Virus record (IMG/VR): IMGVR_UViG_3300027763_000029 | Source of the DNA: a virus | Strand: one strand, 5' to 3' | Length of the DNA stretch: 64,000 nucleotides | In this document: positions 34,649 through 50,047 of the stretch, in pieces | Position numbering within the stretch: position 1 is the first letter of the stretch | Layout: each line of letters starts with the position of its first letter | The notes under the pieces: generated by a model | Told to the model about the DNA's origin: nothing | The model's input: the letters and a program-made list of their open reading frames with translations, nothing else | Database searches by the model: none | Translations under genes and position numbers: made by a program

Positions 34649-37600
34649 TTAAGCCGTATGACCAACGCGACCCATAATTGCATCTGGATTTCCTGCTGTA
34701 ATTTGAGCCTCGCTATTTTTATGTAAACCATAGACAAGTGTCGATGAAGTATTGTTAGAAATAACCTGAGAGTTTGCCGCTGCCTGAGCAAGTAACTGTT
34801 GACCCATTTCTCCAAGACCAGTATGATGATGTGTTTGTGTTACACTTTGAGAAACAGCAAGCTGTCCAGGGAAATTGCTTGCATGTTCACCAAATTGATT
34901 AGTTATACTTCTAAATTCCTGCATAGCTGCTTTAAATTCTTTTGCATCCAATGTCATATTACCACTATTTACATTTCCTCCTTTTGCAAAGTATTGGGGG
35001 GATACTGAGCCACCATCAGATAGATGTATTGGCATTACCATAGGAGGAGCAACCATAGGAGCAACCATACCTCCTTCGGCCAAATATTTTACCACTCCAC
35101 CTTGACTATAAGCTCCACTATTAATAGCTTGTAACATTGGCATATGTTGTTGGGCGGCTTGGCGATTGATAACAAATTCGCCAGGAGTTAACATTGCTGG
35201 AACGGTGTCGGTCCCCATTGGTTGAGCATTTATAAAAGCCCCATTACTAGCATATACTAAACCTCCAGTAGCATATCCAGTTCCTCCACTAGGAGTTTTC
35301 CAATTCTTTCGTTTCTTTTTATCAGGATCAATAACTGGCATTTTAGCAGCATTGTTGTTTGTAGCATCTATGTTCGGCATTGGTGCTGCATTATTATTTG
35401 TAGCATCGAACATCGGCATTTTTGCCGTACCTTCTGTATTTTCTTCGCCAACAACATCTTTAGGGGTGACAGATCCTGATAATAGATTGTATAAACCATA
35501 TCCAATAGTACCGCCAATAGGAGCAGCCATACCCAATCCTGTTAATAGCATTCTTGTGCTTTTTGATTGCTGTTTTTTTTCTAGAAGCGTTCGATATTCG
35601 GCATCAGCAGCATTCTTTATTCTTGCCATCTCTTCAGTATCACCAGCTGCCTTTGCTTTCTTCCACGATTTATTAAATCTATCCTTTACTGCTGCAAGCT
35701 CTGGGTTGGAGGCTCTTCTTTTTTGTTCCAACTTTTCTGACGATACTCTTCCAGCAGCTACAACTTCAGGAGATGAAGCTGGTTTTATAGGAGGGTTTAT
35801 TAGATCATCCAAAGATTTTTCAAAATCCGAAATCCTTGTTGAAAATGATGACATTTCTTCTGATGATTTTGTTGCTCGTGAAAGTCCATTGATCTCAGAT
35901 ATCATATCAGAAGCTTTATCGCCTTTTCTTAATCTATCTTGAATAATATTTATATCTAATCCTGCTTTATCCCAATCTTTTCTTAATCTATATAGTTCTC
36001 TACTATCTTTACTATATCCTAATGCTTTCCCTACCGTATCATGGAACTCTTCTGATGCTGCTGTTCCATTTGTTCGTCTTCTCTCTACTTCAGCATCAAA
36101 AGTTTTTGTAAGAATGTCCACATTTTCTGGCTTTCCTACAAACATATTTGGCTGACCTTTGACAAATCCTGCGCTTCTTCCTATTTTTAACTTGCCTGAT
36201 TGTTCTAATTCTAATAATTGATCTTTATACTTGTCATATGTTTCTGCTGAAGTTAATAATGCTGCTGGTTTACCTGGTTGATCCGAAGAAAATCCTCTTC
36301 TTGCTGACCTTATCACACTTTCTACCTCTTGGTCTCCACTAATTACTCCAAATCCAGCAGAAGCTAGTTGATCAACTCTTGATATTGAAGAAGGATTGAC
36401 TGGTGTTTCTGTTGCCTTTTTGGTTGCTTGGTCTACTGATGCTTTTTGTTGTGGAATTGCACCGGCTTCTGGACCACCCTTATCAGTATAGCTAATATCT
36501 CCTTTGTAAGTTGGAAATAAATCAGGATAATCTCTATAAAATTCATCCATCATTTTCGAAGGACCCAATTTGCCTGCCTTGTACAGAGCTGTATGTATCT
36601 CGCTGACTATCCCTCCCTTGGTTCTAAGGCTCGACATTAGAGGAACTTCAAAATTATCAAATCTAGGATCATAAGTTTTATCGGTACCTTCTTGTTTTCT
36701 TTTAGCAAGCCATCTTTTACGCAAATCTTTTAATGCCGAGGTTAACTTTTGAGTATCAATTGTATCAAGTCCCCCATCAATATTAGGATCATACCTTGTG
36801 GTTCCAAATTTCCCTAAAGAGACTGTGTCTCCATAATCCTTTGCTCCGCCAGCAAAAAGAATATCATCACCCAATGCTTCCATACGTTTAGTTATAGCAA
36901 TAGCTTCTTCAGCAGTACCCTTTTTACCATATGCTACTAAGAATCTTTTATCCCTACCCGATACAGAATCTTCAAATGAGTGCTGCTTGAAACCAAACGG
37001 ACCAAGCATCTGTGCTAATTCTGGATCTGCTGCCATACGAGATATCATTTCGTCCATTTGACCGGCCTGTACGGCAAATCTCGGCTTGTATCCAGTATTT
37101 ATTGGCTCTCTATAGTCAGAAGATACTTCTTTTGGTTTAAACCACCTAAGCATAGTACCCGTATCTTCATATGAGCCCGCGCGAACTTCTGTATTATACA
37201 AACCCTGTTTCATACCGGTCGGGTCGTCTTTTGCTCTTTCTAATAAATCTTTGGGACTCCTGGCTTCAACTTCAACCGGCTTAATAGAACCAGCAGCTTC
37301 TTCAGCAGCACTAACGGCAGGATTAGCTGTTTCCACATTATTTGTGTTTGATCTGGTATTTATAACAGTTTGTTGCTGTTGTGGAGTTAAATTTGCCCAA
37401 GCTTCTGTGGTATAATCATCGGGCTTTCCTGTGGTGCTAATTGGTTTACTTGATGAAGAGCCTTCAAACATACCACCCATCAATTTATCAACTTCTGCCT
37501 GCTCTTTAGCATTAGCAGCATCTATTTTTTGTTGTCTATATTCAGTGACGCTTATTCCAGCCTCATTTGCTTTTGTTCTATCAAAAATATCAGACCTGAT

Positions 37601-40600
37601 AGATGATGCTTCTTTATTTAATTTTTCGTTAATTTCAGCTCTAATTTTAGCTCGTTCTTTAGGATCCTTAATATCTTTGGTTTTTTCCTTATATTCAGCA
37701 CTAAATCGTGCTTTAGCTTCTGCTTTTCTTGCCTCTTTTTCAATAGCAAGATCTGATAAGAATTTGTTGTTCCTTGCTGTTGCTGTTTTTTCAGCTATCG
37801 CTGGATCAATTCCATCTTTAACCAATTTTTCCGCAAGCTGAGTTTTATTAAGATAAGGATTTTCAGCAATAACTTTATCTATCTGTGCTTTTGTCTGTGA
37901 AGCAGCACCTGCTGATTTAAACTCACTATCGATCCCAGATAATAAGCTGGATATCCCCCTCATAATTGGACTAGAGCTTTCGCTCATGGGAATACGAGCA
38001 CCCTTCATTCCAGGTATGCCAAAACCATTATTAGGTACCAAATGAAGAATAGGACTCATGAATTCAAAAATACTCTGATCTCTTTGAGCCTCTCTAGCTT
38101 CTGCTACTCTTTCTTGAGCATCTCTAATTTGTGTTTTATTATCTTTTATTTGATTTTTTTTCTCTATTGCAGCTAATCTATCGTTTCTGTCCATGATACG
38201 ATTAAAGTCTTCAAATCTTAATTCTTGTGCAATATCGTTGAAAGATGTTGGCTTTGCTGGTCCTTCTGGACGAGCATAATTTTTGGTTCCCTTACCTCCA
38301 AAATTAGATGATGGAAGAATAAATCCAGAAATAAAATCCATTAAAGCATCTTGACCAGTACCAAAATCTCCGCGATTAGTTGCTCCTCTAACACCAGCTC
38401 CTATTGCTGCTTCCGTAGACCCACTAACAGTTCTTGTTAATAAAGATCTAACAATAGTAGAAGATCCAGTAAATGGATTGCCAGTTAATAATCCAGTCAA
38501 TAATGATCCAACAGCAGTTTCCCTTGGTCTTTTTTGTGCTAATTCTTTTTGTCTTTTATCAAAATCTGTACCTTCTAATGCCACGTCTTGTAATGCATTA
38601 GCAGTCAAACTAGCAGTAACTCCTCCAAGTATGGTAAGTCCAGCAGCAGCAAGGCCAGTTACTCCTAGAGCTGGTAAGATAATAGGCGCACCAGCAATGG
38701 CCGCTGTACCAGCTAATAATGGAACTATTGCTCTTTGAGCAGCCAATCCAACAGCTTCTCCACCTTCTGAGTCTCTCGCTATCTCTAATTTCTTTTTAGT
38801 ATCTTGAAGACTCTGTTTATCCAATTGACTCATCTGATTAATAGTTAAAGTTTCTCTTCTAATGGTATTAGCTGATACGGTTGATCCTCTTCTATCTCCA
38901 AATGGAATTCCTCTCTCGGCTTCATATGTTCCTAATTCTTCATATTCTTTTGCTGTTAATCTCTTCTTTGGCTTTTCAGCTCCTCCCCATTCTTTTGGCC
39001 AATATTCCCCTAGCCAAGATCTATCATATTTACTCTGACCTATTGCTCTTGATCTAAGTTCTTGAAATCTTTTTTCCGACTTTTCTCTTTCGATAGCTAT
39101 TGTTGCTTGTTGTTCTTTGATATCAATAGCTTCTTGTTTTGCATTATCTGCATTTCCATTAAAAAATTGTGCTCTACTAGGACCACCAGCAGTTGTTGCT
39201 TTTTGTGCATCCAATACTCTACCAGTTATAGGATCAACTCTAGCCCCAGACTTTTTGGGTTCTGGAGGCATAACTGGTAATGCGTCAAGCTTATCTTGCT
39301 CCATAGCAAGTTGTTTCATTGGATCTTCAATAGTAGGTATAACTTCTGGCAGAGGAATCGGTGGAGAAGGTAGTGAGGCATTAATATCTGCGGAAACCTG
39401 TTCACTAATACCTTTAAGAGTTTCATTATGTTCTAGCTGCGATATTGTTGAATCATTTCTAGACTGTTCAAGAGCTATATTTCTAGATTGAGGAGCCAAC
39501 TTATCAAGAGGCACAGTGAACCTTGTTCCATTAGCTCTTTGAATAACAGCAGATCCCGATTTTTCATTTACACTATATATTCTGCCAGATATCTGTTTGC
39601 CACTATCATTACCTATTAAGAAATTTTCACCAGTTTTAGCTTTATCTACTTCTTTTTCTAAAGCATGTGCTCTAACTTTAGTTCTGGACTGATCGCTTAA
39701 TTGATCAAGAGGTACCGTTGTATAGATTTGTTCTTCTTTATATCCTGTAACAAACTTTTCAGGATCTCTTCCTTGGGCTTCTAATTGTTTCTTTGTTACC
39801 TCTCCATTACCATATATTGGTATTTTCCTAGTAATAGGCATACCTGTTTTTGGATCAATCTTTGCTATTCTAACTGTTCCAGCCTTAAAGTCTACGTTAT
39901 CAATAGTTCCTGTTGTTGATGCTGTTCCATCCTTATTAGTAAACTTATATTGAGATTCTATAATCTGTTCTCTTCGTCTTTGTTTTTGTTGTTCAAAACC
40001 CGCAGATGCTGCTGATCCTGGATCATATCCGGGCGGATTTCCTCCTCTATCACTGGTGATCATACCAAGCTCTTTGTCTCTAGCGTCTAGAGCCATTTGA
40101 CGCTCACCTTCTACTCTGCGTCTTTCTTGCTGTTTCTCATATGCTTTTTGTCTAGCATCATTTATAGCAGGATTGCCCTTTTCTTGTTCATCTATAAGAT
40201 TATTCATTTTCCCAACCGGACCCTGAGTACCAACTATCGCCCTATCAGGACCAGCAATATCTCTTCCATTACCTCTATCTACTCTGTTACTTTGTTCTCT
40301 TGCAGATTGCGACGATTTATATTCATCTATATAATCTCTAGTTTTTTGACCTGTTGGATCGTCTCTAGTTGATAAATCTTCTTTGTCTCTAATATGACTT
40401 AATGCACTAGATTCATTATATGAATTGGGTGTTGATGTAACTCCTATTGATCTCCAGAAATTTTCATCTCTGCCTATACCATATTGTTGATCTCTAATTG
40501 AGTCAACAGTCATATTAAAAATTTTATCAGGATCAGCATCAGGATTTTGAGATTGAATCTTTTGTCTATTTTCTTCAAAATATCTTCTATCTGAATATAT

Positions 40601-43600
40601 TCTCTGTAAAGCTCGATCAACAACCCAAGATCTACCATTAAGTCTACTTGCTACAGCATCATCTCTATTTCTTTGACTAGCTATTAGACTTTTAGGAGTT
40701 TTATAATATCCTAGTGTTTCTTGTAGTGTCGCAAGCTCTTTTCTCTTTTCTTCTAACGTGGTTGGATTACCTTCAATATCGAATATTGGCTCATTATTAG
40801 CAGCTTTCTCCTCATAAGATGGCATAGCCTCAGATAATTCCCTAGCTCTAGCAGCAGTTTTCTTTTCATCATAAATATCAATTCCATATTTATGTCTTTG
40901 AAGAACATCTCCAGGATCAAATCCTCTTCCTAGCCATTCATCTGTGCTAATTTCTTTATTTTTATCAGTATCTAGTTCTGAATATGCTGTTCTTTCTTTA
41001 CCCGATAATACTCCGTCTTCATTAACGTCTAATCTATAAAAATCGTCAAGATTTTGTTTGCCAGGTATCTGTGCTCTAGGATCTCCAGGAACTAATGATG
41101 GCCTATAATCTCCAGCCGCCGCTGAAGTATCACTATATTGATCTCTAAATCTTTTTGCTCTTGTCTTTCGAAAATCTTCAAGTTCTTGTTTGCTAGCATC
41201 TTTTTCTCCTATCGGTCTTTTTCCTTTTTTCTTTAAAAAGTTTCTTTGTCTTTCAGCTTTAATTTCATCTATAGTCATGCCGCGAGCCAATCCTTCTCTG
41301 AATAGCCCAATTTCTCCCATATTATTGGGCTTTCTGAAAACCTTTGGACGAGCAGGAGGAGCCGGTGCTCCTGCTGGAGGCGCTGGTGCTGCCGGAGGAG
41401 CCGCCGGAACTGGTGCTGGTGCTGCTGGAGCTTTTGCTGGAGGTGCTGCTGGAGGAACCGCCGGTACTGGTGCTGGTGCTGCTGGAGCTTTTGCTGGAGG
41501 TGCTGCTGGAGGAACCGCCGGTACTGGCGCTCCTGCTGGAACTGGAGGTTTCACAGGATTTGTATTGTACTGAACATTCTCTTTCTTTAGTCTTTCTTCA
41601 GCAAGCTTTCTTTCTTTTTCTTTCTCTTTTATATAGTATTGACTTACCCTAGCGCCGAAGTCGGGTTTGGCCTGCTCATCTGCTATACGTTGTGTCCAAT
41701 TAATACCATCGCTATGAAATTCTAATCCAGTTCCTGGGCCAAATGCTAGAGCTCTTTCTGGGATACCAGCATCTCTCAAAGCATTATTAACAGAATTAAC
41801 ACCTATTCTTCCCATATTGCTGTCATTGGGTCTATTTTCGACTAAATCTAGATCATTAAGTAAACTTCTATCTGTAGTTGCAGATTCGTCTCCCATATTT
41901 GCTTGAGCAGCGTATCTCTGACTACCATTAACTTCTATCCTACCAAGACGACTCCTTTCTTCCTCTGTTTTATAAGAACTACTTTTTCTTCTCATTTCAG
42001 TTTCGTGAGCTATTCTTCTATCTGATACTTCTCTAAATTTATCAAAATCACCCCCCATTAATCTAGCTTCTTCATCAAGTAATTCTTTTTGTTTCTTCTC
42101 ATCTTCCATTCTTTCTTTGCTATCCGGAGCCTTATAAGCTTCTGTTCTGGATCTAATAGTTTGATTTATATTGTCTGATTCTATTCTTTCTTGTTTTAAT
42201 TTATCTTCTATATCTTTGCGAGTTCTACCACCCGTTGATAGATAAACCACACCACCACTACTCATCATGGCAGTATTACCAACTAAACTATTACCACTAT
42301 TAATGCTTTCTAATAAAGATAAATTTTGAGCAGTTGCTCTAGCATTGACGACAAACTCTCCGGGGGTTAACATAGCCGGAACAGTATCAGTACCCTTTGG
42401 ACTAAAATTAACTAAGCTACCACCAACAGAAGCATAAATAACTCCACCATCTGCTTTTCTAAGAGGATTATTAATACCTAAATCTGCTAATTTAATATTC
42501 TGCAAACCCGCTAAAACTCCAGAAAAATTTTCGATCTGCTCTTTCAAAAGCAATATGGCAGATGTATTTTCTGATATTGCGTCTTTATTGAATAAAGCAG
42601 CTATTTGCTCATTAGCACTAACTTGAATAGCACTATTTACCTTTATTGTATCAGCTAATTGTGCAATAACGGGGTCTCTGGTAGGATCAACACTAGCCAT
42701 TATTGTCTGAGCTACTCCAGGATTCATAAATCCAAGCTCGTTGGCCATTTGACCTCTAAGATTACCACTGCGTTTCCTAAATTCCATTTCTGCATCTTGA
42801 TCAGATAATTCTTTTCCTTGAGCAGCTGCTCTATTTTTGATATCTAATATGAAGTTAGATTTGTACTGTTCCATTGTTCTAAGGTCAATACCTCTATCTT
42901 GAGCCATCTGAGCTTGACCAGCTTGCATAGCCAAGAATCTATTGCCACCAGTTTGTCTAAAAGTCATATCATATGCTTGTTTAGCCGCTCTTGATGGGCC
43001 AGGATTGATACCCATCATTCTTTGTTGAACTCTTATTAAAGACTCATTCAGTTTTTGTAGTTCTTGTGGCGTTGAAGATAATATCTGATCTAGATTTTGT
43101 AATCTATCAGCTTGCATTTTTTGTGCATCTCGCAACTGACCAAATGCTGCTGTTACTATATCACTACTATTAGCTAGTTTTTCTAAAGCATTTTTATTTT
43201 TAATTATCTGCAGATCCAAATTTGCCATATCGCTTTGTATTGGACCCCTGTCCGTTACTGGTGTCTTTAATTCTCTTTCTGATAATTTTTTCCTAGCTTC
43301 AGCAAGATTCTCGATATTTTGTCTTATAAGTTTTGGATCAGCAGTACTATTATTAAGATTAAATCCAACTTCTCTTGCTACTATTTGATTAGCCTCTTTA
43401 GTTCCTGCCGTTTGATTTTTTATTTCATTATCTCTAATACCTATACGCTGTCTTATACTGGTAGGAGCCCCAGTAAGAGCTTCTTTCAGTGTCAAATCAG
43501 TTTCTGTTGCAATATTTCTGGCTTTATCAAGACTTTCATTTGCTGCTAGTACAGAATCTACAATTCTGTTTAAAGATTCTACAAATCTATCTGCACCTTT

Positions 43601-46600
43601 ATTTTTAAACTCTAAAAATGCGATGGTACCTTTACGTAAAGTGTCTGTCATATTCCCTATGGAGTTGCCAAATTTTTTATCTATTTCATCAGATAATTTA
43701 TCTACTTTTTCTCCAGGTTTATCAAATTTTAATTTATCTACTTCATCTATAGTATTTTTTAATGCTAGTTTTAAATTATTTCTTATAACATCTGGTAAAC
43801 CTTTTGTAGATTCATCGAGTGCAGTTTCTAATTTTGGTCCTAGTTTTGTTAAATCTTCATTACCCTTATCGCTATTAATAGCATCAGCTATTCGTTTATT
43901 AAGATTTCCTTGTATTTCATCTATTTTAGTTTGATCAAACCCTAATGCATCACTGATCAAATTAGCTTGATTGATTCGTGATTTTTTTTCTTCTACCGGA
44001 ATACCCTGAGCGTTAGGGTTGGTAATTTCAAATGCGATTTTCCTATAATTAGATTTAACCCTATCTCTTTCCATGGCATAAGCTTCTGGATTCTTTAACA
44101 TATCCAACTCTTCGCTGTCTGCATTGGCTACTCTTGGTTTTCCTGTAAGAGCTTCAGAATTACTTCTTCTTATTTTAGCAGCGTTATTGGTATTAAATTC
44201 TACCTTAGAAACAGCAGAAAGAATAGATCTGCCAAGACTATCAAATCCTTGTGTAGCTTTTCTTGTTGATCTTTCTAATTCTTCCATAGCTTTAGCGGTT
44301 ACTGCCGTCCTTTGTGCAGCCAAAAACACTTCGTCTTTCAATAGTGCTATTCTACGAGATGCTAGTTCTTCCTGAATTCTTTTTTGTTTTGTTGTGCCAG
44401 TAGCAGCGAAAGCAGCATCCTCCATATCATTTATTTTTGCTACAAATGCTAGAAACTCATTATCTGCACTAGATATACTGTCAGCTAAAGCAGCAAAACC
44501 AGGATCTTGGGAGATATCTGATAGTGTACTTCCTCTACTAATTTTAGATTCAATAATATCTCTAGCAACTTTTGCCGCACCGCTATTTTGTTTTGACTGC
44601 TCAGAGACTAGTTGGTCTATGTCTTTTTTATCTAATTTTGGTACCGGACCACCCATAAAAGATCCAAGTATTCCTCTGCTATTAGCTTTATTTTCGGCTG
44701 CATTTTTAATTTTAATGGCAAAATCATCATCATTTAATTTTAGTCTATCCGTTAATGGTCTAATAAGATTATCATTATTTCCTGTTTTTTGAGCAGCCTC
44801 TACCCCTTTTGCTATTTTCTCATCAATATCTTCTATTTTTTTGGTTCTTTCAGCTTGTTCAAATTCTTTGACTGCTTTTGTTGCCCCATTGAATCCTTCC
44901 TTTAAAGATAAAAGAGCCGTACCAGCTAGGGTAAAAGCAGCAATATATGGTCCAACAACAGGGATTAGTGCAGCACTAGAAGCTATGCTTAAGCCAGAAG
45001 CAAAGGTACTAACTCCAGCCTCTATACCCGCACCCACTTTGGATCTGGTTTTTTTATCTCCACCGCCAGGAAGCATGCCCGCAATATTATTTCCTTGACC
45101 GGCAATTATACCAAGACCCAAGCTTGCGAAGTATCCAGCATTACCAGTACCCAATCCACCCAAGGATTGTATCATCCTATTACCTGTCCCAAGTAAATTC
45201 TTAGGAGAAAGACTCTTTCTCAATCCAGCAAAATTAGATCCAAAATTTTCTAGACCAGTACCAGTATATCTTGGTATTAAGTCTCTACCGGGTCCAGCTA
45301 ATCCTGCTGCTGTTGCCATATTCCTAGCAGCAATCCTTCGATCTGCCAACTCTTTTTCTGTTAAAGCTCTGGCTTCAGCTGCTCCTTTGCCTAAAGAAAT
45401 TAATTCTTGAGTACGTAATACTCTATATTCTTTATCCATTTGAGCTAGAAACTTACGATCCATCATGCTTTGTTGAGCATATTTTCTTACGTCTTCACCA
45501 ACAATTCCTTGAGATTTTAAATCAGATCTACTAACACCAGTTATTGATGATGTTGCTCTTAGAGTAGATGATTCATATATTTTATTTTTTTGTTCCTCTG
45601 TCAAAGGACTCTTATTCTGTTTTGCTCTGGCTTCTTCTGCTCTTGATATGACATCTTGAGCATGCTTATTGGACTCTAATAGAATTTGTTGTTGAACTTC
45701 ACCGGAAGATCTATCTCTTACTGCACTGAAGGCACTCTCTAATGCATTATTTTTACCAACTTCTTTATTTTTAGATTTTCTAATTGTAGCTAAAGCATTT
45801 TCAGCTGCTATTATTTGACTAATACTACCACCAGCCGCCTTGACTCTATCTACTTCAGATTTGGCAGCTTTTTCTGCTGAGGCATATGATACTCTTCCTT
45901 CATTAAGTAGTAATGATGAAACTTTTTTACTACTTAATCCAAGTTCTTGAATAATTTGTTCTAGTTGTTTTAACGAAGTAATTGACTCTTGGTTGATTCT
46001 TATCGTTGAGCTTTGTATTGTCTCTGGTCTTATTGGTAATCCAGGTCCACCACTAGCAAAAGTTTGAAGTCCAACGCTTCCGCCACTAGCATACAAACCT
46101 AATGCTTTTGTTGCTCTTTCTCTCAGTATAAAGCTACCAACAGGTAAATCTATTGGACCTATGCTATCACTGGTACCGTTTCCTGGTCCTTTAAAAACGC
46201 CGATGCCACCTTTGGCAAATTTACTCATCCCATTACGGTCAGCCTGATTCATTTCATTTAGTCTTGAATATCCAATTTCCTTAGCTGCTTCTGGTGGTAT
46301 ATAAGCCTCGCCATTAGAAACCATAGCTTGAACATGCCCACCTGATGCATAGCCTCTAGCCTTAAGATAATTACCGATCTGACTTTTTAGTTCTGCTGGT
46401 CCATTAAGAGTAAGTTTAGCGTCTGTTGGAATGTTTTGAGGAAGATTAAAATATTTAGCAGCACTTTGAAGACCGTCTGGGAAATCGATGCCATAATTGG
46501 TGGCAGCTTTATTTGCTATTGGACCACCCAATTCATTGATAACTCTTTCAGCAAGATATCCTTTTGCATTGGCTTCGCCAAGCTTTTTCCTAGATGTTGG

Positions 46601-49600
46601 TCCTACTCTTTTCTTTTTATAGAGATATGATCTTATACCCCTCTTCTCAGCTTCTGCTATATTTCTATCGTCGTCATCAATAAAAGCGCCCTCTGGATTC
46701 ATCAAGTCTGCCTTGAGGATAGCAACTTGTTCTGCTGTAATATTTTCTCCACCAACACCCTTAATTCTACCAAGAGGAATTGGAATACCTTGTTGTGCTA
46801 ACCAACCAGCAATCAGATCCATTGTTGATTGTGGTCTAGCAGAAATAATGTGCAGATTATCTGCAAAAGATGGAGTCTGCTTAACTGTATTTGCTATGGC
46901 TTTACCCAAAGCACTAAGTTTAGCTGTTTTAAGAGCACCAGATACTTTTTCTCTATTAGAGAATTCGCTATATTTTGGTTTTCTCGGATCGGCTAAGATT
47001 TTATCTGCACCAAAAGCTAATGTTCTATCAAAATCAGCATATAGTGGACCTGTTTGCTTCAGAATATCCTTAATCATAATGTTTCTTGAAGTTTTATTAG
47101 CTATATCATTTAATCCGACGGTCATCTTACCTAATAACTTCTTTGACATTTCAGAATCTAAAACACCACTAGTAATTCTAACTTTAACTGGATTTTTTAA
47201 TCCTGGAATATCCATTCTGGGAGTTGTAGCAAACGCCTTGCCTTTGAATCCAGCAGCACCAAATAAGAGACCCTCTGTGGTTGCTTTTTCTATATCCAGA
47301 GCATTTGCTGCTTTAATTCCAGAAGTTTTTTCTGTATATTTTGCTAAAATTTTATCTTTGATAGCTTGTTCTGTTGGACTTAATGATTTTCTTTTCTTTA
47401 ATATTTTTTGTATATCACCAGCATTTGATCCAGTATCTTTAATAACTTCATCTAAAGTAAGAACTCTGAATATCTCTGTAGAAGTAGCTGCTGTGCCTGA
47501 CGTTGGAGTCACTAAACCCGCATTAGCAAATTTACGAATAAAACCGCCAGAAGCTTTATTAGTTTGATCTTTTTTATATAGCCTGCGAATTTCTTCAATA
47601 ACCGAGCTTTTATTCGGCATTTCAAAAACTTCAATATTGCCGATATCTTTTGTCTCTGGAGAAAATTTAGTAAAGGGTTGCGTTATATTTCTAGTCACTC
47701 TTGCTCTTAATAATTTATCTAAATAATCTGTTTTAGATACAACGCCACTAGGACGAAATTTTACTTCTCCAATAGATCTTCCATTTTTACTTATTAAATC
47801 AATTGGATAACTATTCCTATAAGGAACATTTTCAATTTCACCAGTTGGTATATAATTTCTTATTCTTAATTCATCTCTCATATGATTTGACAAAAGTCTT
47901 TCATATGCTTCAGACCATTTAGGACTTTCTCTTTGAGTACCTAGTTCATCAACTCTTCTTTGACCTTCTTTTCCAGCTAAAAAGTCTTGTCCTCTTCTAG
48001 ACAACAATCCAGCATAACTTTTTGATTGTACTGGTGTGGGTTTATTTTTTCCTAATAAAAATTTTTGATTTGCTTGAGAAATAGGCAGTCCTTTTCTCAT
48101 ATCATTATATATTTCTCTTGATATAGTCTTAACATCCAAACTTAGCATATTCGGTGTTATCTGTTGAATAGATGCTGAAGCACTATCTTGTTTAGGATTA
48201 ATATATTGTGCTACTCTAGGATTTTGAGAGATTAGTGAAACAGCTTGTGGTAGAGTTTTAATCTCTATTGGTCCTACCTTTCCTCCTTCAGTATACTTAT
48301 TCATTCTATGAAGGTTATGTGACCCTATGGCCTTAACTGCTGGTTTACTCATCACAAATTCGCCTGGCATCAACTTAGCATCAATAGAGTCTGTGTCTCC
48401 GCTTCCAGGAACTAATCCACCACTAGCAAATCTTCTAACTGGACCACCAGAACTCATACCTGGACCGCCACCCAATCTATTACCTAGTCCTTTAGCTCCA
48501 CCAGAACCTCTTATTCCACTTAAAAATCCGCTACCAAATTGTACGGCTGCCGAGGCACCTTTAAATGCTAGCATAACACCTAGAACTGGTAATATTCCTT
48601 TAATACTATCAGCAGCCTTAATTAAAGCACTAGTAACAGATAATGCTCCTTGAGCAATTGCTTGAAAACTATCTGATTTTCCAATATCTCTGAATAAAGC
48701 TAAGAATTGCTCACGAACTTTGGATATTTGCACAGCTAAAGACTCTTGAGCTTTTGCAGCATCTGCTGCTAATGATCCTTGTCCTGTTTGAGCCACCTTC
48801 AATGCATCTTGTGCTGTTGCGAACTGTTGAATAAGAGGAATAACTTTACCAATCTGTCGGAATCCACCAAGTTCTTCAACAATCTTTGAAAACTTTAAAT
48901 CTCTTGGATCTAAATTACCTAGACCTTTACTTAATAGTTCAACGGCCTTATAAGCTCCTACGAACTTACCATCTAGATCTTGTAGATTAACACCATATTC
49001 TTTGAGAGCCTCTATTGTGTCTCCTCTTTGAATTCTGGTAAAGATAGTTCTTAAGCCAGTAGCAATAGTTTCTGCGCTTTCACGAGTAGTAGCTCGTATA
49101 CTAGTGAATACGGCTAAGAATTCATTAAGGGCATCTGTACCTTCACTAACTCCCTTACTCGCTGTGGCGAACACACCACCAGTACGCTGAATGGCTGTAA
49201 TTAAGTCAGCAGCTTCAACAGCAAATTTAGCAGCAACAGAGTTGACAGAGCCTAGTGCTTTTTCTAGATCGCCAGCATTAATACCGAACTGTCTCATCAA
49301 AGCAATAGAACCTTCAACAGTCTCATTCATACTATCGAATGACGGGGCTAATGAACTTAATGCTAATGCTTTAAGAGCTCTTTCAGTATCTCTTGCAGAT
49401 AAGCCGGCCTGAGCTAGTGTGCTAGATATTTGAGTAAGTTCTGCTGATCCAACGCCCAAACCTGTTGCTAGACTTGTGATGGTGGTTTCAAGGCCCTTCA
49501 ATCCTGCTGCTGACTGACCGGTAACCTGTTGTAGCTTTACTAATTCTCTATCATAATCAATATATGCTCTAACACCATTATTAATAGCATTAGTTAATCC

Positions 49601-50047
49601 GTATATAACACTAGTAACAGAGGTGATTGCAGAAAATCTTCTAAAAGCAAGTCCTGCTTGTCTACCGAACTCTGTCATTTCACTACTTGCTGATCTTAGT
49701 TGTTTGGCATTATTGGTCGATGCCTGAGCGACTCTATTTAAAGCAGTAGCCGAGCTATTGAGTACTTGGGGTAAGTTAGAAGCATTTATCGATCCAATAG
49801 AAGTACTAAGATTACGAATAGCAGTAGCAGCAGCATTTGCATTTCCTGTTGTTGTTGATAGTGTTCTGTTAAATGTTAATAGTGCAGCATTTATTCTATT
49901 TAAGTTTGTGGTAGCTGCTGGAGCAATAGTGAGATTTACCGAAGCATTAATGGTACCTAATTGCTTTTTAATGTCTGCTACTATAACAGAAACATTACTT
50001 GGTCCTTTAAGATTAAGCTGTGCCGTTAGATTAAAGCCTGCTGCCAT
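34649..50047 (-). CDS. Giant multidomain tail tape measure protein (5132 aa)
   Basis: TP901-family TMP core near the N-terminus (LAQAGL...ALKALAL...TTRESAETIATGLRTIFTRI), Ala/Gly-rich hydrophobic segments, GTDTVPAMLTPGEFV modules, and position after the tail tube and chaperone-like genes. Confidence 0.9.
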   Translation of the reverse strand: MAAGFNLTAQLNLKGPSNVSVIVADIKKQLGTINASVNLTIAPAATTNLNRINAALLTFNRTLSTTTGNANAAATAIRNLSTSIGSINASNLPQVLNSSATALNRVAQASTNNAKQLRSASSEMTEFGRQAGLAFRRFSAITSVTSVIYGLTNAINNGVRAYIDYDRELVKLQQVTGQSAAGLKGLETTITSLATGLGVGSAELTQISSTLAQAGLSARDTERALKALALSSLAPSFDSMNETVEGSIALMRQFGINAGDLEKALGSVNSVAAKFAVEAADLITAIQRTGGVFATASKGVSEGTDALNEFLAVFTSIRATTRESAETIATGLRTIFTRIQRGDTIEALKEYGVNLQDLDGKFVGAYKAVELLSKGLGNLDPRDLKFSKIVEELGGFRQIGKVIPLIQQFATAQDALKVAQTGQGSLAADAAKAQESLAVQISKVREQFLALFRDIGKSDSFQAIAQGALSVTSALIKAADSIKGILPVLGVMLAFKGASAAVQFGSGFLSGIRGSGGAKGLGNRLGGGPGMSSGGPVRRFASGGLVPGSGDTDSIDAKLMPGEFVMSKPAVKAIGSHNLHRMNKYTEGGKVGPIEIKTLPQAVSLISQNPRVAQYINPKQDSASASIQQITPNMLSLDVKTISREIYNDMRKGLPISQANQKFLLGKNKPTPVQSKSYAGLLSRRGQDFLAGKEGQRRVDELGTQRESPKWSEAYERLLSNHMRDELRIRNYIPTGEIENVPYRNSYPIDLISKNGRSIGEVKFRPSGVVSKTDYLDKLLRARVTRNITQPFTKFSPETKDIGNIEVFEMPNKSSVIEEIRRLYKKDQTNKASGGFIRKFANAGLVTPTSGTAATSTEIFRVLTLDEVIKDTGSNAGDIQKILKKRKSLSPTEQAIKDKILAKYTEKTSGIKAANALDIEKATTEGLLFGAAGFKGKAFATTPRMDIPGLKNPVKVRITSGVLDSEMSKKLLGKMTVGLNDIANKTSRNIMIKDILKQTGPLYADFDRTLAFGADKILADPRKPKYSEFSNREKVSGALKTAKLSALGKAIANTVKQTPSFADNLHIISARPQSTMDLIAGWLAQQGIPIPLGRIKGVGGENITAEQVAILKADLMNPEGAFIDDDDRNIAEAEKRGIRSYLYKKKRVGPTSRKKLGEANAKGYLAERVINELGGPIANKAATNYGIDFPDGLQSAAKYFNLPQNIPTDAKLTLNGPAELKSQIGNYLKARGYASGGHVQAMVSNGEAYIPPEAAKEIGYSRLNEMNQADRNGMSKFAKGGIGVFKGPGNGTSDSIGPIDLPVGSFILRERATKALGLYASGGSVGLQTFASGGPGLPIRPETIQSSTIRINQESITSLKQLEQIIQELGLSSKKVSSLLLNEGRVSYASAEKAAKSEVDRVKAAGGSISQIIAAENALATIRKSKNKEVGKNNALESAFSAVRDRSSGEVQQQILLESNKHAQDVISRAEEARAKQNKSPLTEEQKNKIYESSTLRATSSITGVSRSDLKSQGIVGEDVRKYAQQSMMDRKFLAQMDKEYRVLRTQELISLGKGAAEARALTEKELADRRIAARNMATAAGLAGPGRDLIPRYTGTGLENFGSNFAGLRKSLSPKNLLGTGNRMIQSLGGLGTGNAGYFASLGLGIIAGQGNNIAGMLPGGGDKKTRSKVGAGIEAGVSTFASGLSIASSAALIPVVGPYIAAFTLAGTALLSLKEGFNGATKAVKEFEQAERTKKIEDIDEKIAKGVEAAQKTGNNDNLIRPLTDRLKLNDDDFAIKIKNAAENKANSRGILGSFMGGPVPKLDKKDIDQLVSEQSKQNSGAAKVARDIIESKISRGSTLSDISQDPGFAALADSISSADNEFLAFVAKINDMEDAAFAATGTTKQKRIQEELASRRIALLKDEVFLAAQRTAVTAKAMEELERSTRKATQGFDSLGRSILSAVSKVEFNTNNAAKIRRSNSEALTGKPRVANADSEELDMLKNPEAYAMERDRVKSNYRKIAFEITNPNAQGIPVEEKKSRINQANLISDALGFDQTKIDEIQGNLNKRIADAINSDKGNEDLTKLGPKLETALDESTKGLPDVIRNNLKLALKNTIDEVDKLKFDKPGEKVDKLSDEIDKKFGNSIGNMTDTLRKGTIAFLEFKNKGADRFVESLNRIVDSVLAANESLDKARNIATETDLTLKEALTGAPTSIRQRIGIRDNEIKNQTAGTKEANQIVAREVGFNLNNSTADPKLIRQNIENLAEARKKLSERELKTPVTDRGPIQSDMANLDLQIIKNKNALEKLANSSDIVTAAFGQLRDAQKMQADRLQNLDQILSSTPQELQKLNESLIRVQQRMMGINPGPSRAAKQAYDMTFRQTGGNRFLAMQAGQAQMAQDRGIDLRTMEQYKSNFILDIKNRAAAQGKELSDQDAEMEFRKRSGNLRGQMANELGFMNPGVAQTIMASVDPTRDPVIAQLADTIKVNSAIQVSANEQIAALFNKDAISENTSAILLLKEQIENFSGVLAGLQNIKLADLGINNPLRKADGGVIYASVGGSLVNFSPKGTDTVPAMLTPGEFVVNARATAQNLSLLESINSGNSLVGNTAMMSSGGVVYLSTGGRTRKDIEDKLKQERIESDNINQTIRSRTEAYKAPDSKERMEDEKKQKELLDEEARLMGGDFDKFREVSDRRIAHETEMRRKSSSYKTEEERSRLGRIEVNGSQRYAAQANMGDESATTDRSLLNDLDLVENRPNDSNMGRIGVNSVNNALRDAGIPERALAFGPGTGLEFHSDGINWTQRIADEQAKPDFGARVSQYYIKEKEKERKLAEERLKKENVQYNTNPVKPPVPAGAPVPAVPPAAPPAKAPAAPAPVPAVPPAAPPAKAPAAPAPVPAAPPAAPAPPAGAPAPPARPKVFRKPNNMGEIGLFREGLARGMTIDEIKAERQRNFLKKKGKRPIGEKDASKQELEDFRKTRAKRFRDQYSDTSAAAGDYRPSLVPGDPRAQIPGKQNLDDFYRLDVNEDGVLSGKERTAYSELDTDKNKEISTDEWLGRGFDPGDVLQRHKYGIDIYDEKKTAARARELSEAMPSYEEKAANNEPIFDIEGNPTTLEEKRKELATLQETLGYYKTPKSLIASQRNRDDAVASRLNGRSWVVDRALQRIYSDRRYFEENRQKIQSQNPDADPDKIFNMTVDSIRDQQYGIGRDENFWRSIGVTSTPNSYNESSALSHIRDKEDLSTRDDPTGQKTRDYIDEYKSSQSAREQSNRVDRGNGRDIAGPDRAIVGTQGPVGKMNNLIDEQEKGNPAINDARQKAYEKQQERRRVEGERQMALDARDKELGMITSDRGGNPPGYDPGSAASAGFEQQKQRRREQIIESQYKFTNKDGTASTTGTIDNVDFKAGTVRIAKIDPKTGMPITRKIPIYGNGEVTKKQLEAQGRDPEKFVTGYKEEQIYTTVPLDQLSDQSRTKVRAHALEKEVDKAKTGENFLIGNDSGKQISGRIYSVNEKSGSAVIQRANGTRFTVPLDKLAPQSRNIALEQSRNDSTISQLEHNETLKGISEQVSADINASLPSPPIPLPEVIPTIEDPMKQLAMEQDKLDALPVMPPEPKKSGARVDPITGRVLDAQKATTAGGPSRAQFFNGNADNAKQEAIDIKEQQATIAIEREKSEKRFQELRSRAIGQSKYDRSWLGEYWPKEWGGAEKPKKRLTAKEYEELGTYEAERGIPFGDRRGSTVSANTIRRETLTINQMSQLDKQSLQDTKKKLEIARDSEGGEAVGLAAQRAIVPLLAGTAAIAGAPIILPALGVTGLAAAGLTILGGVTASLTANALQDVALEGTDFDKRQKELAQKRPRETAVGSLLTGLLTGNPFTGSSTIVRSLLTRTVSGSTEAAIGAGVRGATNRGDFGTGQDALMDFISGFILPSSNFGGKGTKNYARPEGPAKPTSFNDIAQELRFEDFNRIMDRNDRLAAIEKKNQIKDNKTQIRDAQERVAEAREAQRDQSIFEFMSPILHLVPNNGFGIPGMKGARIPMSESSSPIMRGISSLLSGIDSEFKSAGAASQTKAQIDKVIAENPYLNKTQLAEKLVKDGIDPAIAEKTATARNNKFLSDLAIEKEARKAEAKARFSAEYKEKTKDIKDPKERAKIRAEINEKLNKEASSIRSDIFDRTKANEAGISVTEYRQQKIDAANAKEQAEVDKLMGGMFEGSSSSKPISTTGKPDDYTTEAWANLTPQQQQTVINTRSNTNNVETANPAVSAAEEAAGSIKPVEVEARSPKDLLERAKDDPTGMKQGLYNTEVRAGSYEDTGTMLRWFKPKEVSSDYREPINTGYKPRFAVQAGQMDEMISRMAADPELAQMLGPFGFKQHSFEDSVSGRDKRFLVAYGKKGTAEEAIAITKRMEALGDDILFAGGAKDYGDTVSLGKFGTTRYDPNIDGGLDTIDTQKLTSALKDLRKRWLAKRKQEGTDKTYDPRFDNFEVPLMSSLRTKGGIVSEIHTALYKAGKLGPSKMMDEFYRDYPDLFPTYKGDISYTDKGGPEAGAIPQQKASVDQATKKATETPVNPSSISRVDQLASAGFGVISGDQEVESVIRSARRGFSSDQPGKPAALLTSAETYDKYKDQLLELEQSGKLKIGRSAGFVKGQPNMFVGKPENVDILTKTFDAEVERRRTNGTAASEEFHDTVGKALGYSKDSRELYRLRKDWDKAGLDINIIQDRLRKGDKASDMISEINGLSRATKSSEEMSSFSTRISDFEKSLDDLINPPIKPASSPEVVAAGRVSSEKLEQKRRASNPELAAVKDRFNKSWKKAKAAGDTEEMARIKNAADAEYRTLLEKKQQSKSTRMLLTGLGMAAPIGGTIGYGLYNLLSGSVTPKDVVGEENTEGTAKMPMFDATNNNAAPMPNIDATNNNAAKMPVIDPDKKKRKNWKTPSGGTGYATGGLVYASNGAFINAQPMGTDTVPAMLTPGEFVINRQAAQQHMPMLQAINSGAYSQGGVVKYLAEGGMVAPMVAPPMVMPIHLSDGGSVSPQYFAKGGNVNSGNMTLDAKEFKAAMQEFRSITNQFGEHASNFPGQLAVSQSVTQTHHHTGLGEMGQQLLAQAAANSQVISNNTSSTLVYGLHKNSEAQITAGNPDAIMGRVGHTA
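41401..41530. repeat. GC-rich 57-bp tandem repeat encoding PVPAVPPAAPPAKAPAAPA in the TMP
   Basis: ccgccgg starts at 41401, 41458 and 41515. Confidence 0.85.

What the first reader, a model, noticed from the sequence alone, without database searches (positions are those of the whole stretch)
34649..48460. Tape measure protein punctuated by [FY]AxGG motif clusters that bracket cargo domains: possible injected polyprotein
Seen: about 17 xxxGG motifs (FASGG, YTEGG, KASGG, YASGG, FAKGG, KADGG, LSTGG, YATGG, YSQGG, LAEGG and others) in five clusters at ~48280-48460, 47515-47560, 46050-46355, 42225-42460 and 34975-35280. Five copies of a D(S/T)xPAxLxxGEFV-like module sit at ~48380, 46315, 46150, 42370 and 35190. 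Globular, non-TMP domains lie between the clusters. Knowledge: TMPs leave the tail during DNA ejection and are often proteolytically processed, and Gly-Gly sites are used for polyprotein cleavage in some large DNA viruses. A single such module is common in TMPs; the repetition around cargo is what stands out. Inference: the motifs are processing or boundary signals that release effectors into the host.
Basis: partly seen in the sequence, partly recalled or inferred. Interest (0 to 1): 0.8.

Follow-up and report, generated by a model that had tools for sequence, protein, structure and literature searches.

The report
Giant cassette-built phage tape measure
The tail "ruler" gene of this uncultured 152-kb marine phage encodes a 5,132-residue protein whose fixed backbone and swappable inserts, one of them an intact phosphatase, are joined by five copies of a short conserved joint; phage lambda's ruler has one such joint beside its cutting site, but cutting here is untested.

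Summary
The ORF at 34649-50047 (-) is a real TP901-type tape measure protein (TMP). It has 17 [FYKLM][AST]xGG motifs against about 2 expected. They form the edges of five copies of one junction module, plus one minimal joint.

At least 303 giant relatives (3,245-7,872 aa) exist in metagenomes. All 120 examined carry 3-10 modules. The module profile hits 26,172 protein clusters, yet no Pfam or NCBIfam model matches the copies here.

Homology blocks between relatives start and stop at the GG motifs to the residue. Different segments show different degrees of relatedness, so inserts are exchanged at the modules.

One insert is a HAD phosphatase with all catalytic motifs invariant and a HAD-fold model.

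The "processing signal" reading is neither shown nor excluded. Lambda gpH has one module just after its mapped cleavage region. T5 pb2 is cut directly before an AEGG motif, but that resemblance is by eye only. No suitable protease was found in the phage. The 2,312-aa variable block has no internal modules.

This scan has reported the same architecture on more than a dozen other phage genomes, with the same verdict each time.

The parts
34649..50047 (-). Tape measure protein gene, 5,132 aa, no cysteine
   Evidence: Single ORF. PF10145 at 1.2e-20 and TIGR01760 at 3.1e-27 in the N-terminal part. PHROG tape-measure families. Zero Cys.
48443..50047 (-). N-terminal TMP core, aa 1-535. It ends with a hydrophobic stretch (aa 484-503) and a Gly-rich run (aa 511-535).
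   Evidence: Present in all 121 proteins as one cluster of median length 528 aa. Hydropathy. T5 pb2 shows the same order of hydrophobic stretch then cleavage site (PMC10038345), and lambda gpH has a Gly-rich run just before its module.
48272..48442 (-). Junction module M1, aa 536-592 (FASGG ... DTDSIDAKLMPGEFV ... YTEGG)
   Evidence: Module profile 51-75 bits. Coverage by relatives falls from 104-115 to 36 of 120 directly after it.
47558..48271 (-). Insert A1, aa 593-830, unknown fold, variable among relatives
   Evidence: Covered by only 32-40 of 120 relatives. No Pfam or PDB sequence match.
47507..47557 (-). Minimal joint, aa 831-847 (KASGG ... FANAG), no hairpin
   Evidence: Weak partial profile match. 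Homology blocks start at bins 820 and 840.
46358..47506 (-). Insert A2, aa 848-1230, with a HAD phosphatase core at aa 996-1146 (window 46610-47062). Motif I DFDRT at 47021-47035, motif II SARP at 46832-46846, Lys at 46703-46720, motif IV DDDD at 46667-46684.
   Evidence: Catalytic motifs invariant across 10 homologues at 26-88% identity. AlphaFold core pLDDT 85-95. Foldseek top hits include AphA, HisB-N, T4 Pnkp phosphatase and MDP-1, with probability about 1.0. Atlas lead to viral HAD families at 0.83.
46031..46357 (-). Module doublet M2 (aa 1231-1283, short form) and M3 (aa 1274-1339, degenerate long form)
   Evidence: 37 homology blocks start exactly at residue 1233 and 18 end at 1334. Doublets at this seam appear in many relatives.
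42473..46030 (-). Conserved backbone segment, aa 1340-2525, with a hydrophobic pair at aa 1681-1715 (window 44903-45007)
   Evidence: One cluster in 120 of 121 proteins, median 1,174 aa, always at the same ordinal position. Hydropathy.
42224..42472 (-). Junction module M4, aa 2526-2608 (KADGG ... GTDTVPAMLTPGEFV ... MSSGG, LSTGG)
   Evidence: 100-108 bits. Coverage falls from 120 to 23 and then below 10 of 120 after it.
35288..42223 (-). Hypervariable block, aa 2609-4920. It holds a Pro/Ala tandem repeat (41345-41555), an EF-hand loop pair (40937-41029) and a hydrophobic hairpin (38606-38752). No internal modules.
   Evidence: Only 2-10 of 120 relatives align. Cluster of 8 proteins. DNA repeats. 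EF loops, weak Pfam EF-hand at E 0.06-0.08, and precomputed EF-hand families in relatives. No module found.
34973..35287 (-). Junction module M5, aa 4921-5025 (YATGG ... GTDTVPAMLTPGEFV ... YSQGG, LAEGG, LSDGG, FAKGG)
   Evidence: 113-118 bits. Coverage rises from 8 to 117 of 120. Same position relative to the C-terminus as the single module of lambda gpH.
34652..34972 (-). C-terminal tail, aa 5026-5132. Inferred to be the equivalent of the hub-binding plug of lambda gpHC and T5 pb2C.
   Evidence: All relatives end 100-420 aa after their last module, most at about 130-170 aa. In lambda, T5, JBD30 and Douge, the last 33-42 residues are the part resolved in the hub (PMC12617516, PMC10038345, PMC11445458, PMC13033339). 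Function here is inferred.

Best explanation
This is a genuine TP901-type tape measure protein from a very large family of 3,000-8,000-residue TMPs of uncultured aquatic siphophages.

It consists of a fixed backbone:
- a core of about 525 aa;
- a helical/hydrophobic segment of about 1,170 aa;
- a C-terminal tail of about 130 aa.

Exchangeable inserts sit between the backbone parts. Every seam is the same Gly-Gly-flanked junction module of 55-105 aa. This is the multiplied form of the single module that precedes the C-terminal plug in lambda gpH and many other TMPs.

Shown: the architecture, the seams, the exchange of inserts at the seams, strong purifying selection on the module, and one insert being an intact HAD phosphatase.

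Inferred mechanism:
1. The protein is made as one chain and threaded through the tail tube, where it rules a tail of roughly 0.8 micrometre.
2. At infection it leaves ahead of the DNA, C-terminus first.
3. Its hydrophobic segments help build the envelope conduit.
4. The inserts are carried into the host envelope or cytoplasm and act there.

The module has no confident autonomous fold when modelled alone; apart from one short helix the model is low in confidence. It is a standard connector that tolerates any neighbour, and this is why inserts can be swapped at it. It is also the most likely place for any post-assembly cutting, as in lambda and T5, but cutting is not demonstrated.
For: TMP identity: PF10145, TIGR01760 and PHROG tape-measure families.

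Family size: at least 303 giant relatives, and 3-10 modules in every one of 121 proteins.

Module spread: the profile hits 26,172 clusters at E<=1e-3. Of these, 1,277 score <=1e-30; the 150 listed have 3-12 stretches each.

Seams:
- Coverage profile and block ends.
- Residue-level breakpoints.
- Identity steps.
- Backbone and cassette clusters, including 115 singleton cassettes.

Selection on the module:
- The 15-mer GTDTVPAMLTPGEFV is at least 90% conserved across 466 copies.
- In M4 and M5 the peptide is identical, but only 8 of 20 third codon positions match.

Module fold: the monomer model has pLDDT 65, with only one helix confident.

Same module elsewhere:
- Lambda gpH 733-785.
- Twice in Douge gp16, and in JBD30 gp46.
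- Directly before the mt3 peptidoglycan hydrolase in a TM4-like TMP (PMC1796659).

HAD insert.

Ruler plausibility:
- Nodularia phage 2AV2 has a 3,404-aa TMP with two internal modules and a 795-nm tail (PMC6293099).
- Deleting the TM4 cargo domain shortens the tail as predicted (PMC1796659).

Delivery precedent: the virion RNA polymerase of P23-45 gp96 (PMC10770324).

Single chain: modules lie in more than one ORF in only 1 of 80 loci.
Against: - No virion, tail length or proteome exists for this phage. Ruler function, ejection and delivery are all inferred.
- Only one insert has a verified fold. The 2,312-aa variable block gave no Pfam, PDB or Atlas match.
- The neighbouring tail genes are unannotatable, so the gene's slot in the tail module rests mainly on the N-terminal TMP domain.
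- What the module does physically is unknown. It is unresolved in every published tail structure that contains it (PMC12617516, PMC13033339, PMC11445458).
- Homologues are related to each other, so the breakpoint counts are not independent events.
Confidence: 0.7

Rival explanations
1. Processed polyprotein. After tail assembly or during ejection the chain is cut at each module. This would release the N-core, the HAD-bearing piece, the backbone piece, the variable block and a gpHC-like plug as separate proteins.
For: - Lambda gpH is cut in its Gly-rich region just before its only module. A cut at the T5-equivalent position would give about 79.7 and 12.6 kDa, interpolated from the masses. Reported values are about 78 and 14 kDa (PMC12617516).
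- T5 pb2 is cut after R1127, directly before AEGG (PMC10038345; sequence).
- The family motif is [FKRY]-[AS]-x-G-G-hydrophobic.
- The module has no confident fold in isolation, so it may be exposed to proteases.
- M1 follows a hydrophobic stretch and a Gly-rich run; T5 has the same hydrophobic-stretch-then-cut order and lambda the same Gly-rich run before its module.
Against: - T5 pb2 is not detected by the module profile, so that link is by eye only.
- Lambda's exact cleavage site and its protease are unknown (PMC12617516).
- Lambda's second ATGG motif is evidently not cut: a cut just before it gives H* 84.4 kDa, against about 78 kDa reported.
- No JAB, C48 or NlpC/P60 protease was found in the genome.
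- The residue before Ala is not conserved.
- A cut at each member of the M2-M3 doublet would release a peptide of about 44 aa with no evident role.
- The 2,312-aa block has no internal modules, so its sub-domains would not be separated.
- No cleavage has been reported for the TM4 TMP (PMC1796659).
Confidence: 0.3
2. Uncut structural joint. The modules are never cleaved. They would act as docking hooks for the hub or tube lumen, or as points that re-establish the register of the trimer after each non-coiled insert. The whole chain enters the host intact.
For: - The most conserved part is the central 15-mer plus the following helix, although the flanking GG pairs are also at least 90% conserved. 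This fits a binding surface.
- The JBD30 authors predict that the equivalent residues (1022-1066) form a hook like the T5 pb2* end, which lodges between hub subunits (PMC11445458, PMC10038345; module mapped to 1018-1086).
- P23-45 gp96 stays full-size in virions yet its enzyme works in the host (PMC10770324).
- Giant TMPs are essentially never split into separate genes.
Against: - P23-45 gp96 has no module, so it says nothing about modules.
- No structure shows the module bound to anything.
- The modelled monomer is mostly unstructured.
- Lambda's TMP is cut next to its module.
Confidence: 0.4
3. Length spacers only. The inserts would exist just to lengthen the ruler, and so the tail, and would have no function in the host. 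The modules would be relics of recombination.
For: - Tail length scales with TMP length, cargo domains included (PMC1796659).
- Most inserts have no recognisable family.
Against: - All four HAD catalytic motifs are invariant across homologues as low as 26% identity, which spacers would not need.
- EF-hand loops are kept here and in relatives.
- The modules are under strong purifying selection at protein level, not DNA level.
Confidence: 0.1

Closest known systems
Phage lambda tape measure gpH and its maturation to gpH* plus gpHC
   Same: Lambda has one copy of the same module (FATGG ... PAGIVHRGEFV ... YATGG, aa 733-785), preceded by a Gly-rich run and followed by the hub-binding C-terminus. 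M1 here repeats the Gly-rich-run-then-module part of this layout, and M5 repeats the module-then-C-terminal-tail part. Cutting in lambda occurs in the Gly-rich region next to the module (PMC12617516).
   Different: Lambda has one module and no inserts in 853 aa. Here there are five modules and about 3,000 aa of inserts. The lambda-specific NCBIfam model TIGR01541 covers gpH 472-813 but does not match the modules here. The N-terminal cores belong to different TMP families.
Phage T5 tape measure pb2 (pb2* plus pb2C)
   Same: A hydrophobic stretch is followed by a mapped cut (after R1127), directly before an A-E-G-G motif. This motif starts the C-terminal fragment that is expelled first (PMC10038345).
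   Different: The resemblance of pb2 1128-1153 to the module is visual only; the profile does not detect it. pb2 has a single site and 1,219 aa.
Mycobacteriophage TM4 gp17 with the embedded mt3 peptidoglycan hydrolase
   Same: An enzyme domain inside a TMP counts toward tail length and aids infection (PMC1796659). In the TM4-like BoostSeason gp17 the module ends at FAEGG (762-766), and the mt3-type sequence begins about 15 residues later.
   Different: TM4 gp17 has one module and one cargo domain in about 1,225 aa. The cargo is a wall hydrolase, not a phosphatase. No exchange of cassettes has been described.
Thermus phage P23-45 gp96 (5,002-aa TMP fused to a virion RNA polymerase)
   Same: A giant TMP of the same size for an extremely long tail. 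It carries an enzyme that works inside the host after ejection (PMC10770324).
   Different: gp96 has no junction module. It carries one N-terminal enzyme and is present full-size in virions. It is not homologous beyond being a TMP.
Polyvalent proteins of phages and conjugative elements (Iyer et al. 2017, PMC5512222)
   Same: The concept of one huge polypeptide that brings several activities into the recipient together with the DNA, with processing proposed for some.
   Different: Those proteins are head-packaged or conjugation-transferred and often carry a zincin-like peptidase. Tape measure proteins are not mentioned in that paper, and no peptidase domain was found here.

Membership tests
TP901-family tape measure protein (PF10145 / TIGR01760) | Match to the family core model above the curated cut-off | tested here: met
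   PF10145 at 74.7 bits (cut-off 33.2), aa 193-382. TIGR01760 at 95.5 bits (cut-off 28.8), aa 148-477.
TP901-family tape measure protein (PF10145 / TIGR01760) | Position in a tail gene module, between chaperone/tube genes and distal tail/hub genes | tested here: inconclusive
   All flanking genes are on the same strand. The downstream 1,305-aa protein matches virion, baseplate and head-closure PHROGs. Upstream and immediate downstream ORFs have no family match.
TP901-family tape measure protein (PF10145 / TIGR01760) | Sets tail length | not testable with these tools
   No virion exists for this uncultured phage. By analogy only: 2AV2 has 3,404 aa and a 795-nm tail (PMC6293099).
Lambda-type TMP C-terminal region (NCBIfam TIGR01541) | Match to the model | tested here: not met
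   Lambda gpH 472-813 scores 448.7 bits. None of the five modules here gives any hit at E<=10.
Lambda-type TMP C-terminal region (NCBIfam TIGR01541) | Shared module: xAxGG, PA....GEFV hairpin, helix, xAxGG | tested here: met
   The family profile built here hits lambda gpH 733-799 at 24.2 bits. Profile A3 hits PDB chain 8iyk_H at E 0.05.
Viral polyprotein cut at Gly-Gly by a dedicated protease (adenain or ASFV pS273R type) | Virus encodes a clan CE (Ulp1-like) or comparable Gly-Gly-specific protease | tested here: not met
   No PF02902, PF14464 or PF00877 match in the 151.8-kb genome at E<=0.1. A divergent protease cannot be excluded.
Viral polyprotein cut at Gly-Gly by a dedicated protease (adenain or ASFV pS273R type) | Demonstrated cleavage products | not testable with these tools
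   This needs virion proteomics.
HAD-superfamily phosphatase (insert A2) | Four catalytic motifs in order: DxDxT, S/T, K, DD | tested here: met
   DFDRT (1005-1009), SARP (1069-1072), an invariant Lys and DDDD (1124-1127). All are invariant in 10 homologues.
HAD-superfamily phosphatase (insert A2) | Rossmann-like HAD fold | tested here: met
   Core pLDDT 85-95. Of the 20 Foldseek hits at E<=1e-3, nearly all are HAD enzymes or HAD-derived proteins, with target TM-scores of 0.45-0.60 for single-domain HADs.
HAD-superfamily phosphatase (insert A2) | Match to a curated HAD sequence model | tested here: not met
   No Pfam family matches. The best is PF06189 at E 0.13 in one member. No PDB sequence hit.
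Polyvalent proteins (Iyer et al. 2017) | Several enzymatic domains plus, typically, a zincin-like processing peptidase in one chain | tested here: not met
   Only one enzyme domain was verified, and no peptidase family was detected. The resemblance is functional, not membership.

The most novel reading that the evidence does not exclude
The junction modules are maturation seams. After the ruler has done its job, the chain would be cut at the modules, by itself or by a host protease as in lambda and T5. The tail lumen would then hold an ordered train of separate proteins (plug, variable block, channel-forming backbone, phosphatase piece, core) that enter the host one after another ahead of the DNA. 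The swappable slots would then be a general, evolvable protein-injection system of long-tailed phages.
Probability: 0.3. Interest if true: 0.85.

Novelty: new variant of a known kind. Interest (0 to 1): 0.62.

Why it matters
TMPs with a single embedded enzyme are known (TM4, T5, P23-45). I found no published description of three things seen here, in three full-text searches on related terms:
- A family of more than a thousand protein clusters in which one conserved connector, absent from Pfam, is repeated up to 12 times per protein.
- That connector marking the exact points where inserts are exchanged.
- Some of those inserts being intact enzymes.

This matters in three ways:
- It offers a sequence handle on two unsolved questions in a classic system. 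Where and how lambda gpH is cut is still unknown.
- It gives a rule for finding proteins that phages may inject with their DNA.
- It suggests a natural scaffold into which foreign domains can be inserted without breaking tail assembly.

It also implies that tails of 0.5-1.2 micrometre are common among uncultured aquatic siphophages.

Tried and rejected
- Trimer prediction of the module (three copies, alignment A3): no verdict, score 0.00. This counts neither for nor against.
- AlphaFold of the module alone: low confidence, so no fold search was made on it.
- PDB sequence searches of aa 593-1340 and 2609-4920: nothing.
- Atlas search of aa 4270-4740: no usable hit.
- Pfam on the HAD alignment and on 124 modules: nothing meaningful.
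- Search for stand-alone homologues (216-690 aa) of the HAD insert: none.
- Megablast of the gene against cultured phages: no match.
- Direct DNA repeats between modules: none, so recent duplication or gene conversion is rejected.
- Gene splits at modules: 1 of 80 loci, so this gives no support for separate genes.
- The module in P23-45 gp96: absent.
- T5 pb2 as a statistically supported module homologue: rejected.
- Literature searches for the motif, for 'polyprotein' and for self-cleavage together with tape measure: nothing relevant. The 'moraphage' paper concerns an unrelated lineage.
- Chance or low complexity as an explanation of the motifs: rejected by the shuffles.

Full report
**The gene.**
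- The window is part of a 151.8-kb IMG/VR virus record rated complete.
- A single uninterrupted ORF on the minus strand, 34649-50047, encodes 5,132 residues.
- Its first 510 residues match the tape-measure core models above their cut-offs: PF10145 (74.7 bits) and TIGR01760 (95.5 bits). They also match three PHROG tape-measure families.
- In cultured phages only this N-terminal core finds relatives, at 23-25% identity, in SPbeta-like and other Bacillus phage TMPs. There is no nucleotide match.
- Flanking genes are on the same strand and mostly unannotatable. The downstream 1,305-aa protein matches virion and baseplate families.

**Checking the observation.**
- Plain Gly-Gly is not enriched: 44 against 36 expected.
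- [FY][AST]xGG occurs 9 times against 0.41 in shuffles. [FYKLM][AST]xGG occurs 17 times against 1.94. No shuffle out of 2,000 reached either count.
- The five hairpin modules are at aa 536-592, 1231-1283 (a short 'SNGEAYI' form), 1274-1339 (degenerate), 2526-2608 and 4921-5025.
- The cluster at aa 831-847 is a minimal joint without a hairpin.
- M4 and M5 share an identical 15-residue peptide, yet in the surrounding 20-codon comparison only 8 third positions agree, and no DNA repeat links the copies. The copies are therefore kept by selection on the protein, not by recent duplication.

**The family.**
- A word-based search found at least 303 relatives of 2,822-8,981 aa at E<=0.001. The 120 listed are 3,245-7,872 aa, mostly on contigs of 20-250 kb.
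- Every one of the 121 proteins carries 3-10 modules.
- The family plan is N-core (about 525 aa), module, variable segment (500-2,400 aa), module (often a doublet), conserved segment (about 1,170 aa), module, one to five cassettes separated by modules, module, and a C-terminal tail, most often about 130-170 aa.
- Clustering the 749 inter-module segments gave three backbone clusters, each present in 105-121 proteins at a fixed position. The cassettes behind the third seam fall into many small clusters and 115 singletons.
- A profile of 124 modules taken from the window and 76 viral contigs was run against 1.84 billion representative proteins. It hit 26,172 at E<=1e-3 and 1,277 at <=1e-30; the 150 listed have 3-12 stretches each.
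- No Pfam or NCBIfam model matches the modules here.
- In cultured phages, tblastn finds the module in 47 records. Every annotated feature under the listed matches is the TMP gene, although two records label it endolysin and some records are unannotated.

**Are the modules boundaries? Yes.**
- Coverage of the query by the 120 relatives is 104-120 through M1 and drops to 36 right after it. It is 104-120 through M4, then falls to 23 and below 10. It jumps from 8 to 117 at M5.
- Of 910 ends of homology blocks of at least 100 aa, 62.5% lie within 40 aa of a module. The modules plus that margin cover 12.6% of the protein.
- At residue level, starts pile up at 1233 (the Y of YASGG), at 2528-2534 (KADGG is at 2531) and at 4925-4926 (YATGG). 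Ends pile up at 591, 1334 and 2607, which are the last Gly-Gly of each module.
- Segments have different histories. One relative is 87% identical up to residue 584 but about 39% in the backbone segment. Another is 67% identical through 1-1334 but 25% afterwards. Four relatives with only 64-66% identical cores share part of the variable block at 43-48%.
- These counts come from related proteins, so they are not independent events.

**What the module is.**
- The family consensus is [FKRY]-[AS]-x-G-G-[IVLM]-[VI]-Y-A ... G-T-D-T-V-P-A-M-L-T-P-G-E-F-V ... a helix ending in I-N-x-G ... Y-x-x-G-G.
- The central 15-mer is at least 90% conserved in 466 copies. The Gly pairs are also at least 90% conserved in the 124-sequence alignment.
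- AlphaFold with that alignment gives pLDDT 65, with only one short helix confident. The module does not model as a confident autonomous fold.
- The same module occurs once in lambda gpH at 733-785, right after the Gly-rich run. It occurs twice in mycobacteriophage Douge gp16 and once in JBD30 gp46 at 1018-1086. It occurs twice, internally, in the 3,404-aa TMP of Nodularia phage 2AV2.
- It also occurs once in a TM4-like TMP. There it ends at FAEGG (762-766), and the mt3-type peptidoglycan-hydrolase sequence starts about 15 residues later (PMC1796659).
- In all published tail structures that contain it, this stretch is unresolved (PMC12617516, PMC13033339, PMC11445458).
- The JBD30 authors predict that their residues 1022-1066 form a hook like the T5 pb2* end, which lodges between hub subunits after ejection (PMC11445458, PMC10038345).

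**Are the inserts cargo?**
- For aa 837-1230 I aligned ten homologues at 26-88% identity. DFDxT, (S/T)ARP, a Lys and DD are invariant.
- The AlphaFold model has pLDDT 85-95 over the core.
- Its Foldseek matches are almost all HAD-superfamily enzymes or proteins derived from them. They include AphA, HisB-N, T4 Pnkp phosphatase, MDP-1 and phosphoserine phosphatase.
- The Atlas lead pointed the same way. No curated sequence model detects the insert, and no stand-alone homologue of 216-690 aa was found.
- The 2,312-aa variable block contains a Pro/Ala tandem repeat, two canonical EF-hand loops and a hydrophobic hairpin. It gave no family, PDB or Atlas match and has no internal module.
- The 1,186-aa block between M3 and M4 is conserved backbone, not cargo.

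**Are the modules cut? Unresolved.**

In favour:
- Lambda gpH is cut in its Gly-rich region to give about 78 and 14 kDa fragments, with site and protease unknown (PMC12617516). A cut at the start of the module would give about 79.7 and 12.6 kDa, interpolated from the masses.
- T5 pb2 is cut after R1127, and the next residues are AEGG (PMC10038345).
- M1 follows a hydrophobic stretch and a Gly-rich run. T5 shows the same hydrophobic-stretch-then-cut order, and lambda the same Gly-rich run before its module.

Against or neutral:
- The module profile does not detect T5 pb2.
- Lambda's second ATGG is not the cut site.
- The residue before Ala varies among F, K, R, Y and L.
- No JAB, Ulp1-type or NlpC/P60 protease is detectable in the genome.
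- Giant TMPs are almost never split into separate genes.
- P23-45 gp96 is a 5,002-aa TMP whose N-terminal RNA polymerase works in the host, yet it is full-size in virions (PMC10770324). However, it lacks the module, so it does not bear on the seams.

**Tail length.**
- At 1.5 angstrom per residue, 5,132 aa would give about 770 nm.
- 2AV2 has 3,404 aa and a 795-nm tail (PMC6293099).
- Deleting the 114-aa cargo domain of TM4 shortens the tail by about 20 nm, as predicted (PMC1796659).
- Whole-chain ruler use is therefore plausible. It would imply tails beyond 1 micrometre for the largest relatives.

**Verdict.**
The boundary reading is supported and the cargo reading is supported for one insert. 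The processing reading is open, at about 0.3.
- The same architecture has been reported by this scan on more than a dozen other phage genomes with matching conclusions. Those notes gave me the P23-45, TIGR01541 and cysteine leads, which I checked here.

Noticed in passing
window 34649-50047 (-): The 5,132-residue protein has no cysteine at all. 105 of 121 giant relatives also have none (median 0 per 1,000 aa). This fits a chain that must be stored extended, pass a narrow channel and refold.
   Followed up: partly
window 41345-41555: A GC-rich tandem DNA repeat with periods of 9-57 nt encodes a Pro/Ala-rich linker inside the variable block. Several homology blocks of relatives start just after it, near aa 2980, so it may be a second kind of seam.
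   Followed up: no
L002 (phage T5) 17122-20781, pb2 aa 1128-1153: The segment of T5 pb2C annotated as a zinc-carboxypeptidase motif (GEHGTEVV, after AEGG) lines up by eye with the GG-plus-hairpin part of the junction module. The 'peptidase motif' may be a degenerate module. This is not supported statistically.
   Followed up: partly
L084 (Nodularia phage vB_NpeS-2AV2) 10983-21197: A 3,404-aa TMP with a reported 795-nm tail gives 2.3 angstrom per residue. This is well above the usual 1.5 angstrom per residue rule.
   Followed up: no
L038, L052, L053, L055, L057, L060, L065, L069, L070, L074, L076: In these viral contigs the module-bearing ORF ends shortly after the module. The longest ORF of the locus, 2,400-3,260 aa and reaching the locus end in every case, starts shortly downstream (about 230-1,500 nt after the match). 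This is a different giant tail gene next to a TMP.
   Followed up: no
L086 (Mycobacterium phage BoostSeason) 2853-6527, aa 703-800: In this TM4-like TMP the junction module (LATGG ... SDSILARVANGEFI ... FAEGG) is followed within about 15 residues by YKWGG...DCSG. That is the start of the experimentally studied mt3 hydrolase domain. The module-then-cargo order therefore already exists in a model phage.
   Followed up: partly
window 46358-47539 (-): The HAD insert has no stand-alone homologue of 216-690 aa in 5.8 billion proteins at the sensitivity of the word-based search. This HAD lineage seems confined to tape measure proteins.
   Followed up: partly
window 53835-56918 (-): A 1,027-aa upstream protein combines an arylsulfotransferase-like region (PF05935, 9.8e-9) with a LamG domain (PF13385, 2.1e-11).
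   Followed up: no
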